This document shows positions 578-3,210 of a DNA stretch of 5,696 bases, piece by piece. The stretch comes from a virus. Lineage: Duplodnaviria > Heunggongvirae > Uroviricota > Caudoviricetes. The first letter of the stretch is position 1. Each line of letters starts with the position of its first letter. The notes beneath the pieces were generated by a model. The model worked only from the letters and a program-made list of their open reading frames with translations, did not search any database and was not told the DNA's origin. The stretch lies in the IMG/VR virus record IMGVR_UViG_2706794691_000016. One strand, given 5' to 3'. The position numbers were made by a program, and so were the translations under genes.

Positions 578-689
578 ATATATTGGTTCTACATTGACAG
601 GAGACTTCAACCATAAGAAGTAATCTGAATACTTGAGCAATAAATTTACTTAAGATTAATGAGCGCACCTTGCCGGACAAAGATAAACC

Positions 690-708
690 AAGGTAACACC
701 TTTTTTCT
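690..708 (+). terminator. Weak candidate intrinsic terminator: AAGGT-aac-ACCTT hairpin followed by TTTTcT
   Basis: 5-bp stem, 3-nt loop, then a T-tract, downstream of the DUF1971 gene. The stem is short and AT-rich, so this is weak. Confidence 0.2.
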
Positions 709-1127
709 AGCCAGTATGTAATCAATCAGAAAGCCGCTCCATAAGAACAACAGCAAGACAATAAATTGCCATTACAGCCGCAATAGCCAGCGCACATTTG
801 AGAACCAGCACGACAACCCCCTGTATTAGACGCACACCAGTCCTGATAAATATGAGGCTGTCTCGTCAGTGATTCAATACAACTATTGGGTATAGTTTCT
901 GTGATTTTATTCTGTAGAAATGGAACACAACAACCAGTCACCACCAGCACTTCCTTAAATGCTCTAAGTCAGAAACAAGCCAACATTTTAGTCCGCTTTG
1001 AGCGATCTGCAGACATTGCTAGCAGCCTTCTGTGTGAATTCTCAGGGAGCAGGTCGGCATAGCATCACGTTGAGGCTCTTACCCTACTTGTTCACACCAA
1101 CCCTAACTCCACAGACTGATTCATAAA

Positions 1128-2024
1128 TTAGTAATCTGCGTGTTTCGCACTTTTCAGAAATGCTTTCATATTTTCATTAGGTCGCTCAATTTCGAAGTTA
1201 CTTCCATATAACTCTTGTAATTTTGGCCATAACTTACTTAATAACCCTCTCCTGCGATAAAATGGATGTATCCAAACGGTAGATAGGTACGGAGAATTTG
1301 CATTTGAATTGTTTATTGTGACCAGCCCAACTAAACATTGTCGATAACCACTATTATCCATTGATTGTATTTCTTCGACGAATGGATACGCGATTACATC
1401 AGTCCAACCATGATCGGTTGTATCCCATTGCATTCCGTCATGACATTCCTTCGACTGATAGCGGCGTAAAGCTACACACGCGAGCTTTTGCCAATCTGGA
1501 GAATTAATTGTGATCTCTTCATCGTATGACGCGCCTATTGGAGCGGGTATTGGTCTGATTAATCCAGCATGGCATTCATCATAGAACTTCATGNNNNNNN
1601 NNNNNNNNNNNNNNNNNNNNNNNNNNNNNNNNNNNNNNNNNNNNNNNNNNNNNNNNNNNNNNNNNNNNNNNNNNNNNNNNNNNNNNNNNNNNNNNNNNNN
1701 NNNNNNNNNNNNNNNNNNNNNNNNTCTTAAGAGTTTAATTAAGTTAATACAAGCTTCTTCACTAGTCTTGCCGTTGATGCGAAGTATGTTAGGACTAAAG
1801 TAATATTCATCCATATCAGGGAATGCAGCTTCGCAAAACTCCTGTACATAATTTAGCACCTGGATTCTACAGAGATCATCATAGCTGGTAATAACTAAGG
1901 GGGTATCTTCATTACTATTATGATTATCAATAATGCAATCTATAGCGAGACTTACTGCTTTGCGTATCACTTCAGTTGAATCTAACGACTCTAAAAATTT
2001 TGTCTTTCGTGTGCGAATATCCAT
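1128..2024 (-). CDS. Hypothetical protein P3 (298 aa) with a GNAT-acetyltransferase-like C-terminal region and an unrecognised N-terminal region
   Basis: Single open frame on both sides of the 1594-1724 mask. ATG at 2024-2022 with an AGGT SD-like element 4 nt upstream, starting 15 nt after the P2 stop. C-terminus ...VWIHPFYRRRGLLSKLW...NENMKAFLKSAKH resembles GNAT motif A and the C-terminal N..A..FY.K motif by eye only. Two ECH-G motifs (DECHAG, KECHDG) about 43 residues apart. Confidence 0.7.
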   Translation of the reverse strand: MDIRTRKTKFLESLDSTEVIRKAVSLAIDCIIDNHNSNEDTPLVITSYDDLCRIQVLNYVQEFCEAAFPDMDEYYFSPNILRINGKTSEEACINLIKLLRXXXXXXXXXXXXXXXXXXXXXXXXXXXXXXXXXXXXXXXXXXXXMKFYDECHAGLIRPIPAPIGASYDEEITINSPDWQKLACVALRRYQSKECHDGMQWDTTDHGWTDVIAYPFVEEIQSMDNSGYRQCLVGLVTINNSNANSPYLSTVWIHPFYRRRGLLSKLWPKLQELYGSNFEIERPNENMKAFLKSAKHADY

Positions 2025-2039
2025 GTATGACCTGCGCTA

Positions 2040-2602
2040 TTAAAATTCATGAATGAACGGTTTGTCATCTGGTTGCAAAATGGTGGTTTTATTCGTTGCT
2101 ACATTTAAACTGTTGTAGAGCATAATTGCCAGGTTCGATGCATTTTCAATCAGCGTTTCAAGATCCTGGTCTGTAATCACTACGAGGTTCCCTTCTTTAT
2201 CCTTTCCACCACGATGCACTAAGTGATTTCGATTGAGGGTTGCCAATTCAATAGCTTCTATCGGACAGTCTTTTTGTACTTTTATATCGAATGTAGCTTC
2301 ATAGCGGTCGATTACCTTTTTAGTGCTATGCCAGCTTGCACTGATCAAGTGTTCCTTGATTGACCTGATTAGCTCTCCCCTAATTTTCTCGATGGGTTCA
2401 CCCTTGAAAGGCAACGCAGCAATATCTTTGCTTACTTTAAATTCAGTCTTACCTTTTTCTATACAATTGGCTATGTAGACATCATCTTTCTCTATAGAAT
2501 TAATGAATAGCTCAACATAAAGCGTTTCCAAAGCTGTAATAACATTCGTGTAGAGCAAACTAAGCAAGTGGTTTTTTTGCTGTTGTTCAGTTTTATCTTT
2601 TG
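2040..2602 (-). CDS. Hypothetical protein P2, C-terminal 186 aa visible, containing a candidate HEPN-type Rx4H motif (RNHLVH, codons at 2214-2231)
   Basis: 186-codon open frame in AT-rich DNA ending at TAA 2040-2042; the N-terminus is inside the 2603-2852 mask. Motif context ...ELATLNRNHLVHRGG... fits the R-[N]-x3-H signature of HEPN RNases. The family call is a motif-level inference only. Confidence 0.65.
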
Positions 2603-2852
2603 NNNNNNNNNNNNNNNNNNNNNNNNNNNNNNNNNNNNNNNNNNNNNNNNNNNNNNNNNNNNNNNNNNNNNNNNNNNNNNNNNNNNNNNNNNNNNNNNNN
2701 NNNNNNNNNNNNNNNNNNNNNNNNNNNNNNNNNNNNNNNNNNNNNNNNNNNNNNNNNNNNNNNNNNNNNNNNNNNNNNNNNNNNNNNNNNNNNNNNNNNN
2801 NNNNNNNNNNNNNNNNNNNNNNNNNNNNNNNNNNNNNNNNNNNNNNNNNNNN

Positions 2853-3072
2853 CATAGCCACCTTCTCTACTTTCATACGGACAAGCATTTGCCGGATCTT
2901 CAAAGTTTTCAAAGAACCAGTTTTTCATTACTTCGAGTTGATCTTTTTTGCTTATGTATTTTAAAGATTTTAGTGGAACTTTCTTTCCATTAACCTCGAA
3001 AACAATTTTCACGATGTAACGCTCCCTTGTATCAATTGCGCAACTATTATACCACAGCGAAATACAGGGCAT
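2853..3072 (-). CDS. Hypothetical small protein P1 (N-terminal 73 aa visible; 3' end within or just past the 2603-2852 mask)
   Basis: ATG at 3072-3070 preceded by AAGGAGG with a 6-nt spacer. Translation MPCISLWYNSCAIDTRERYIVKIVFEVNGKKVPLKSLKYISKKDQLEVMKNWFFENFEDPANACPYESREGGY. Under a length-preserving mask it is in a different frame from P2, so it is either a separate upstream gene or there is a frameshift. The first visible in-frame stop is at 2593. Confidence 0.5.
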
Positions 3073-3110
3073 AACCTGCCTCCTTAAACTAACATACCAT
3101 GAGCCAGCAA

Positions 3111-3136
3111 TGTCCGCTATTGGCACAAAGCGGACA
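3111..3136 (-). promoter_or_regulatory. Perfect 8-bp inverted repeat TGTCCGCT-N10-AGCGGACA upstream of P1, next to a TTGACA hexamer on the coding strand; candidate operator or promoter element
   Basis: Seen in sequence in the 137-nt gap between the gene Y stop (3211) and the P1 start (3072). The function is inferred. Confidence 0.25.
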
Positions 3137-3210
3137 ACCACGCTAGCTCTCCCCTGTGCCAGAAAAATGTCAATTTACATATGAACTAATGCTCTTTGAT
3201 CTAGTAACGT

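What the first reader, a model, noticed from the sequence alone, without database searches (positions are those of the whole stretch)
2040..2602. P2 carries a HEPN-type Rx4H motif (RNHLVH) near its C-terminus
The context LATLNRNHLVHRGG at codons 2214-2231 matches the R-[N]-x3-H catalytic signature of HEPN ribonucleases, which are common effectors in abortive infection, toxin-antitoxin and CRISPR-accessory systems. The N-terminal part of P2 is masked, so the domain architecture is incomplete.
Basis: inference. Interest (0 to 1): 0.6.

Follow-up and report, generated by a model that had tools for sequence, protein, structure and literature searches.

The report
Known anti-phage HEPN protein DS-33A

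Summary
RNHLVH is encoded at 2214-2231 on the minus strand, as reported. An identical unmasked copy shows the gene is 320 aa (WP_014639476.1, window 2040-3012).

It has two domains:
- an N-terminal domain of the Pfam family HEPN_RES_NTD1;
- a C-terminal HEPN domain of the RiboL-PSP type.

This exact protein, together with the downstream GNAT-like gene (window 1128-2024), is the validated defence system DS-33 of DeWeirdt et al. (Science 2026). In their raw plaque tables:
- deleting the HEPN gene abolishes protection against T7, T3, Bas26 and Bas67;
- the R258A mutation does the same;
- deleting the GNAT gene does not.

My survey agrees. Only 2 of 80 species-level homologues have the GNAT neighbour, and no other partner is conserved.

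Points I did not find in the papers read:
- the N-terminal domain is the one used to define the aRES defence proteins;
- proteins with this domain end in a C-terminal phenylalanine far more often than expected;
- the tested GNAT allele carries Leu at an invariant Pro.

Verdict: correct, already known.

The parts
2040..3012 (-). P2 = DS-33A coding sequence. It is 320 aa, WP_014639476.1, with a GTG start at 3010-3012 and a stop at 2040-2042. The interior 2603-2852 is masked with a run 10 nt longer than the real sequence.
   Evidence: A copy 100% identical over the unmasked bases and its annotation. Same accession and sequence as DS-33A in PMC13092281 Tables S6 and S8.
2214..2231 (-). Codons for R258-N-H-L-V-H263, the HEPN Rx4H catalytic motif. 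It continues as R264-G-G266.
   Evidence: Translation. R, H, R and G are invariant in 38 homologues. R258A abolishes defence.
2079..2585 (-). HEPN domain of the RiboL-PSP type, about residues 140-308. It comprises a long first helix, a helical insert, helix 3 ending in the motif, a short hairpin-like loop, and a long last helix.
2853..3012 (-). Visible part (residues 1-53) of the N-terminal HEPN_RES_NTD1 domain, which spans about residues 25-115. The rest is masked.
   Evidence: PF18870 hit on P2 residues 25-91: E 1.9e-4, 22.2 bits, below the curated cut-off of 27.4. 37 of 38 homologues match. The same domain occurs fused to other C-terminal regions.
2043..2078 (-). C-terminal tail, residues 309-320 (LQPDDKPFIHEF), ending in the family-typical acidic residue plus Phe.
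   Evidence: 92 of 120 hits of the P2 search and 65 of 120 proteins carrying this N-terminal domain end in Phe, against 4 of 104 control ORFs. Its function is unknown.
3022..3054 (-). Possible own promoter and ribosome site: an extended -10-like TGGTATAAT (3046-3054) and a Shine-Dalgarno-like AAGGGAG (3022-3028) upstream of the GTG.
   Evidence: Read from the sequence. Conserved in Serratia and Aeromonas copies as TGGTACAAT and TGATACAAT. The system works from its native upstream region on a plasmid. The consensus scan found no enrichment, so this is inference only.
1128..2024 (-). P1 = DS-33B-type gene. It is 333 aa, WP_000354966.1, and starts 15 nt after the P2 stop. It has an N-terminal alpha/beta domain and a C-terminal GNAT acetyltransferase fold. 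The interior 1594-1724 is masked.

Best explanation
P2 is DS-33A, a stand-alone two-domain anti-phage protein carried as cargo in a Rac-like lambdoid prophage.

Its C-terminal domain is a HEPN nuclease of the RiboL-PSP type, with active-site residues R258 and H263. Its N-terminal domain is HEPN_RES_NTD1, a module also found fused to other effector domains.

Shown by published assays: the cassette, expressed from its native upstream region, reduces plating of T7, T3, Bas26 and Bas67 by about 2 to 6 logs across two replicate series. This needs the HEPN gene and R258. It does not need the downstream GNAT gene.

Inferred:
- the protein is held inactive in uninfected cells;
- a phage cue acts through the N-terminal domain, possibly with the C-terminal Phe tail;
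- HEPN domains then pair into a composite active site and cleave RNA (tRNA, mRNA or rRNA) without metal;
- translation stops, and with it phage growth, probably at the cost of the infected cell.
For: Identity:
- The accession (WP_014639476.1) and sequence are those of DS-33A, which is scored 'defensive TRUE'.

Genetics, as log10 protection in two replicate series:
- wild type: T7 3.8/2.6, T3 3.3/2.4, Bas67 4.0/2.0, Bas26 5.0/5.9;
- HEPN gene deleted: all values at or below 0.54;
- R258A: all values at or below 0.78;
- GNAT gene deleted: T7 4.8/4.3, T3 3.3/3.3, Bas67 4.0/3.3, Bas26 5.0/4.9.

Domain assignment:
- The motif is invariant.
- PF18735 matches 26 of 38 homologues and PF18870 matches 37 of 38.
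- The motif lies at the end of helix 3, as defined for HEPN.

Stand-alone status:
- Only 2 of 80 species-level loci have P1 downstream.
- 112 immediate neighbours share no family.
- The commonest neighbour Pfam family is phage integrase, in 4 of 104.

Defence context:
- The gene sits in a low-GC stretch (34-43% against about 50%) between the prophage replication genes and the late-region genes.
- It lies next to a Thoeris system in Aeromonas.
- It lies after the lambda O/P-like replication genes in a Spartinivicinus prophage-like region.

Analogues:
- aRES is a stand-alone defence protein defined as a RES domain plus PF18870.
- HepS is a solo HEPN in the same kind of prophage locus; it is a tRNA anticodon nuclease triggered by a phage tail protein.
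Against: - No biochemical RNase assay, RNA target, trigger or abortive-infection test for this protein was found in the papers read.
- P2 itself gets no PF18735 hit. Its PF18870 hit is below Pfam's cut-off, 22.2 against 27.4 bits.
- Foldseek against the PDB found nothing significant; the best E-value was 0.25.
- A sequence profile against PDB chains found nothing.
- No PADLOC model matched.
- Only R258A was tested, not H263A.
- The sensor role of the N-terminal domain is pure inference.
Confidence: 0.88

Rival explanations
1. P2 and P1 form a true two-gene system. The GNAT acetyltransferase would control the HEPN nuclease, either as an enzymatic antitoxin (as MNT does for HepT in type VII toxin-antitoxin pairs) or as a damper of its activity.
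For: - The two genes are 15 nt apart and move together. A 2.08-kb block covering exactly both genes is shared by E. coli and Aeromonas at 86% nucleotide identity, and is also in Serratia grimesii.
- About 200 of 205 E. coli copies of P2 have both genes.
- Deleting the GNAT gene gave equal or higher protection in 8 of 10 comparisons, with T7 up by 1.0 and 1.7 log.
- The tested GNAT allele has Leu at the otherwise invariant Pro289, so the consensus allele found in this window is untested.
Against: - Cells with the GNAT gene deleted were viable enough to be assayed and defended fully. GNAT is therefore not an essential antitoxin.
- 78 of 80 species-level P2 homologues lack it.
- P1 homologues occur without P2 in Vibrio, Marinomonas and Serratia.
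- DefensePredictor scored P1 low, at log-odds 1.08.
Confidence: 0.1
2. The HEPN domain is not a nuclease here. It would bind a nucleotide or a protein, as some HEPN domains do, and R258 would matter for folding or ligand binding while another activity arrests the phage.
For: Some HEPN families are non-catalytic. No RNase assay exists for this protein. No second catalytic-residue mutant is available.
Against: - The non-catalytic HEPN families have lost the Rx4-6H motif. Here R, the polar residue after it, and H are all kept across phyla.
- No other enzymatic domain is present in the protein.
Confidence: 0.03
3. The motif is a chance match in an unrelated helical protein.
For: Rx4H appears in 10.7% of shuffles of P2. 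Foldseek gave no significant match.
Confidence: 0.005

Closest known systems
DS-33 (DS-33A + DS-33B), DeWeirdt et al., DefensePredictor, Science 2026 (PMC13092281)
   Same: DS-33A is the identical protein (WP_014639476.1). The gene pair, order and spacing are the same. Defence against T7, T3, Bas26 and Bas67 depends on the HEPN gene and on R258.
   Different: The window's P1 is WP_000354966.1, with Pro289. The tested DS-33B (WP_000354965.1) has Leu289. The searches of the main text found no mention of DS-33 by name, and the papers read do not address its N-terminal domain, its trigger or its target.
RiboL-PSP-HEPN family (Pfam PF18735; Anantharaman et al. 2013), including PD-T4-2 component B
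   Same: Same HEPN subtype by profile hits in homologues. The DS-33 authors' own HHblits hit to a PD-T4-2_B-type protein had probability 96.1 over 55% of the query. The Rx4H motif is conserved.
   Different: P2 itself does not reach any PF18735 or PADLOC PD-T4-2 score. It has no L-PSP fusion and no ParB operon. It is a one-protein unit with its own N-terminal domain.
aRES (Osterman et al., bioRxiv 10.64898/2026.01.28.702374)
   Same: A stand-alone anti-phage protein of similar size with two domains, the N-terminal one being PF18870. It occurs in defence islands without an operon partner and causes growth arrest on infection.
   Different: Its effector is a RES NAD+ phosphorylase, not a HEPN nuclease. 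I did not recover any RES-bearing relative of P2's N-terminal domain among the best 150 representatives. The link therefore rests on the Pfam family and on that paper's detection rule.
HepS of Salmonella prophage Gifsy-1 (Nature 2026, PMC13043305)
   Same: A solo HEPN defence protein encoded in the accessory slot after the replication genes of a lambdoid prophage, with no partner gene and a required Rx4H motif. It gives a worked example of activation by a phage protein and of tRNA cleavage.
   Different: No HepS entry appeared in my sequence or fold searches of solved structures. In HepS the motif is at R100-H105. [quoted passage not shown]
HepT-MntA (HEPN-MNT) type VII toxin-antitoxin pairs
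   Different: P2 has no adjacent nucleotidyltransferase and no antitoxin requirement, and it is about twice the size because of the extra N-terminal domain.

Membership tests
HEPN superfamily (RNase type) | An Rx4-6H motif with a polar residue (N, D or H) after the R, conserved across the family | tested here: met
   R258-N-H-L-V-H263. R and H are invariant in 38 homologues, and position 2 is N or H.
HEPN superfamily (RNase type) | A four-helix up-down bundle with an insert between helices 2 and 3, and the motif at the end of helix 3 running into the loop to helix 4 | tested here: met
HEPN superfamily (RNase type) | Metal-independent RNA cleavage that depends on the motif | not testable with these tools
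   Only genetics is available: R258A abolishes defence.
RiboL-PSP-HEPN (PF18735) | A profile match to PF18735 | tested here: inconclusive
   P2 itself gets no hit at E up to 10. 26 of 38 full-length homologues match, best E 1.4e-9. These homologues match P2 at about E 1e-26 to 1e-66.
HEPN_RES_NTD1 (PF18870) | A profile match to PF18870 at the N-terminus of a HEPN or RES protein | tested here: inconclusive
   P2 scores 22.2 bits, E 1.9e-4, below the cut-off of 27.4. 37 of 38 homologues match. Relatives of the N-terminal domain alone reach 27.7-40.2 bits.
DS-33 (DefensePredictor) | The same protein pair, WP_014639476.1 plus a 333-aa GNAT-like protein immediately downstream | tested here: met
   P1 differs from the tested DS-33B at residue 289 (Pro against Leu).
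aRES | A RES domain together with PF18870 in one stand-alone protein | tested here: not met
   The C-terminal domain is HEPN, not RES. Only the N-terminal domain is shared.
HepT-MntA type VII toxin-antitoxin | An adjacent MNT nucleotidyltransferase that modifies the HEPN toxin | tested here: not met
   The neighbours are a DUF977 protein and a GNAT-like protein. No conserved neighbour was found in 80 loci.
PD-T4-2 / PD-T4-5 / PD-T7-3 / ApeA (HEPN defence systems in PADLOC) | A match to the system's PADLOC profile | tested here: not met
   No such hit at E up to 10. The DS-33 authors report only a remote HHblits link to PD-T4-2_B.
HepS | Sequence or fold similarity to the Gifsy-1 HepS tetramer protein | tested here: inconclusive

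The most novel reading that the evidence does not exclude
The N-terminal domain and the conserved C-terminal phenylalanine together form a common switch, either an intramolecular latch or a head-to-tail contact. Evolution would have plugged this switch onto many different killing domains: HEPN in DS-33A, RES in aRES, a GmrSD-like nuclease, and a large unannotated group with hydrophobic tails. One type of phage cue would then fire a whole family of otherwise unrelated one-protein immune effectors.
Probability: 0.25. Interest if true: 0.55.

Novelty: already known. Interest (0 to 1): 0.22.

Why it matters
The call itself adds nothing new. The protein is a published, mutationally validated defence factor, found in about 4% of complete E. 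coli genomes (209 of 5426).

What could matter is the family-level picture assembled here:
- One small N-terminal domain is present in at least 1,671 protein clusters.
- It is shared by DS-33A and, by definition, by aRES.
- It is joined to several different C-terminal regions.
- It goes with a C-terminal Phe in 54-77% of members, against about 4% in controls.

If that tail and domain form the activation switch, DS-33A would be a convenient E. coli model for how such single-protein sensors are triggered.

Tried and rejected
- **Pfam, NCBIfam and PADLOC on P2.** No HEPN hit on P2 itself, either on the visible C-terminal part or on the full protein. PHROGs gave only families of unknown function.
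- **Sequence profile against PDB chains.** Only noise.
- **Foldseek.** Nothing significant against the PDB. The afdb50 library was unavailable.
- **Third homology search, with the N-terminal domain alone.** It returned only short proteins and fragments, so it did not show architectures. I replaced it with a profile search of representatives. That search showed many architectures, but none with RES among the best 150.
- **P1 as an obligatory partner.** Rejected by the 80-locus survey, by P1 homologues found without P2, and by the published GNAT deletion.
- **Small genes next to P1 homologues as relatives of P2's N-terminal domain.** No similarity.
- **Conserved neighbour of any kind.** None found.
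- **Promoter and terminator scan.** Counts equal to shuffled sequence.
- **Rfam on the region.** No family.
- **Phage genome collection.** Only 2 distant hits in 50,697 records. The gene is prophage, plasmid or island cargo rather than a feature of isolated phages; 27 plasmid records carry the domain.
- **SSB-tail mimicry by the acidic-Phe tail.** I considered this from memory. It fits only the HEPN subgroup, because the tails of the other subgroup are not acidic. I kept it as speculation only.

Full report
**Observation.** The window is a partly N-masked stretch of an E. coli Rac-like lambdoid prophage. window:2214-2231 on the minus strand translates to RNHLVH, within LATLNRNHLVHRGG. The mask runs do not keep native length. 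The minus-strand ORF therefore appears split into two frames in the window.

A megablast of window 1128-3200 found about 200 complete E. coli genomes carrying most of the region, with the unmasked bases up to 100% identical. From strain FORC_081 (locus L001) I read the two full genes:
- P2 is 320 aa (WP_014639476.1). It runs from a GTG start at window 3010-3012 to the stop at 2040-2042.
- P1 is 333 aa (WP_000354966.1, window 1128-2024). It starts 15 nt downstream of the P2 stop.

The motif is R258-H263 of P2.

**Is it more than chance?** On its own the motif is weak. At least one Rx4H appears in 10.7% of shuffles of P2, and R[NDH]x3H in 1.8%. Conservation settles the matter. A protein search found 125 relatives. 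In an alignment of 38 of them, with as little as 27% identity, R, H, R and G of R-x4-H-R-x-G are invariant, as are a W-H pair and a Glu further upstream. The motif is present in 103 of the 106 family hits; the three that lack it are short proteins of 180-210 aa.

**What the protein is.**
- *Profiles.* P2 itself gets no HEPN profile hit. However, 26 of the 38 homologues match Pfam PF18735 (RiboL-PSP-HEPN, best E 1.4e-9), and 37 of 38 match PF18870 (HEPN/RES N-terminal domain 1). P2's own PF18870 hit covers residues 25-91 at 22.2 bits, below the 27.4 cut-off.
- *Motif position.* The motif lies at the C-terminal end of the penultimate core helix and runs into the loop before the last helix. Anantharaman et al. 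2013 place it exactly there. They also list Ribo L-PSP-HEPN as a motif-keeping family distantly related to AbiD/AbiF.
- *Negative results.* Foldseek against the PDB gave nothing significant. A sequence profile against PDB chains gave only noise.

**The N-terminal domain is modular.** The weakest hits of the P2 search share only the first ~100 residues. They carry other C-terminal regions, for example a GmrSD_N nuclease domain, or an unannotated region ending in a hydrophobic stretch. A profile of the domain alone finds 1,671 clusters in 1.84 billion representatives. Among 120 of the best that are at least 200 aa long:
- 99 match PF18870;
- 16 match PF18735;
- single examples carry a KAP NTPase, an RNase E/G domain, or HTH domains;
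- most have no annotated C-terminal domain.

**Partner or no partner.** In E. coli the two genes nearly always travel together. A 2.08-kb block covering exactly P2 and P1 is shared with Aeromonas at 86% nucleotide identity, where it lies beside a Thoeris system. Across the wider family this link disappears:
- Of 80 species-level loci from many phyla, only 2 have P1 downstream.
- The 112 immediate neighbours form no recurrent family.
- Their commonest Pfam family is phage integrase, in 4 of 104.
- P1 homologues also occur without P2.

Other contexts seen:
- a prophage-like region just after lambda O/P-like replication genes;
- beside a ParE-toxin/HTH gene pair;
- at the end of an Aeromonas prophage;
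- on plasmids.

The cassette is low in GC (34-43%) compared with the replication genes beside it, which are about 50%. P2 is therefore a stand-alone unit, and P1 is a fellow traveller in one recent clade.

**Literature.** The decisive result came from a search of supplementary tables. WP_014639476.1 with WP_000354965.1 is the unit given the working name 'GNAT' and the final name DS-33 in DeWeirdt et al., Science 2026 (PMC13092281). It was cloned with its native upstream region on a low-copy plasmid in MG1655 and is scored as defensive. Their raw plaque table gives log10 protection in two replicate series:

| Construct | T7 | T3 | Bas67 | Bas26 | T5 |
|---|---|---|---|---|---|
| Wild type | 3.8 / 2.6 | 3.3 / 2.4 | 4.0 / 2.0 | 5.0 / 5.9 | below 1 |
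| HEPN gene deleted | all values at or below 0.54 | | | | |
| R258A | all values at or below 0.78 | | | | |
| GNAT gene deleted | 4.8 / 4.3 | 3.3 / 3.3 | 4.0 / 3.3 | 5.0 / 4.9 | not summarised |

The independence from P1 that I inferred from genomics is confirmed by the published deletion. The main text does not discuss DS-33 by name.

Two further papers frame the mechanism:
- aRES (Sorek lab, 2026) is a stand-alone defence protein detected by requiring a RES domain plus PF18870. It depletes NAD+ on infection with growth arrest.
- HepS of Gifsy-1 is a solo HEPN in the same accessory slot of a lambdoid prophage. It is kept as an inactive tetramer and opened by the phage tail-tip protein J to cut tRNAs.

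**Mechanism.**
- *Shown:* defence requires P2 and R258, and P1 is not required.
- *Inferred from family knowledge:* HEPN domains pair to form a metal-independent RNase site. The protein is silent until infection. The N-terminal domain takes part in sensing or in holding the enzyme off. RNA cleavage halts translation.
- *Untested:* RNase activity, the target, the trigger, and whether the infected cell dies.

**Things not reported in the papers I read.**
1. P2's N-terminal domain belongs to the family that defines aRES.
2. Proteins with this domain end in phenylalanine far more often than expected: 92 of 120 hits of the P2 search and 65 of 120 representatives, against 4 of 104 neighbouring ORFs and 2 of 67 P1 relatives. 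This holds with the HEPN motif (15 of 25) and without it (50 of 95). The HEPN group has an acidic tail of the type E-x-E-F; the others have a hydrophobic tail ending P-F. The model is not confident about the tail.
3. The tested DS-33B has Leu at residue 289. The window's allele and all 36 aligned homologues have Pro there, next to the predicted acetyl-CoA loop. The consensus GNAT is therefore untested.
4. Deleting the GNAT gene gave equal or higher protection in 8 of 10 comparisons. This is a hint, no more, that P1 may damp P2.

**Verdict.** The feature is an already published, experimentally validated defence protein. Interest is low for the finding as stated. Some residual interest lies in the shared N-terminal domain and the C-terminal Phe.

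Noticed in passing
window 2043-2078 (-); proteins P0001-P0120 and P0308-P0447: Proteins carrying the HEPN_RES_NTD1 domain end in a C-terminal Phe in 54-77% of cases, against about 4% in controls. This holds whatever effector domain they carry. The tail is acidic-x-acidic-Phe in the HEPN group and hydrophobic plus Pro-Phe in the rest.
   Followed up: partly
window 1128-2024 (-), P1 residue 289: The window's GNAT-like protein has the invariant Pro289 (WIHPFYRRRG). The DS-33B allele tested in the published assays has Leu there. The conclusion that the GNAT gene is dispensable was therefore drawn with a non-consensus allele.
   Followed up: partly
PMC13092281 Table S7: Deleting the GNAT gene gave equal or stronger protection than the two-gene construct in 8 of 10 phage-by-replicate comparisons (T7 up by 1.0 and 1.7 log). 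P1 may mildly damp P2, or the deletion may alter expression.
   Followed up: no
window 1128-2024 (-): P1 is a two-domain protein: an N-terminal alpha/beta domain with no family assignment, followed by a C-terminal GNAT fold. Its roughly 67-cluster family is found mainly in gamma-proteobacteria. It sits in mobile or defence-type contexts on its own, for example beside HipA and Mrr in Vibrio, and inside a conjugative element in Serratia.
   Followed up: partly
window 1594-1724, 2603-2852 and other N runs: The masked runs do not preserve the native length. P1 is 105 nt shorter than in reality and P2 is 10 nt longer. Reading frames and coordinates across masks are therefore unreliable.
   Followed up: yes
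L010 / L011 4942-7011 (Aeromonas), L022 (Serratia grimesii): The P2-P1 cassette has moved between genera as a discrete 2.08-kb block. It includes about 60 nt of upstream sequence with a conserved extended -10-like element. In Aeromonas it lies next to a Thoeris system and TIR genes rather than in a prophage.
   Followed up: partly
window 600-1127; ORF 726-950 (-): About 500 nt between the DUF1971 gene and P1 carries no annotated gene. It contains a 74-aa Cys-rich ORF with no Pfam match, and no Rfam family was found. This is probably non-coding or decayed sequence.
   Followed up: partly
L019 3038-3679 (-), Marinomonas: One P1 homologue without P2 sits divergently next to an Abi_2 (AbiD/F-type HEPN) gene that has its own RNRVAH motif. 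This may be coincidence within a defence island.
   Followed up: no
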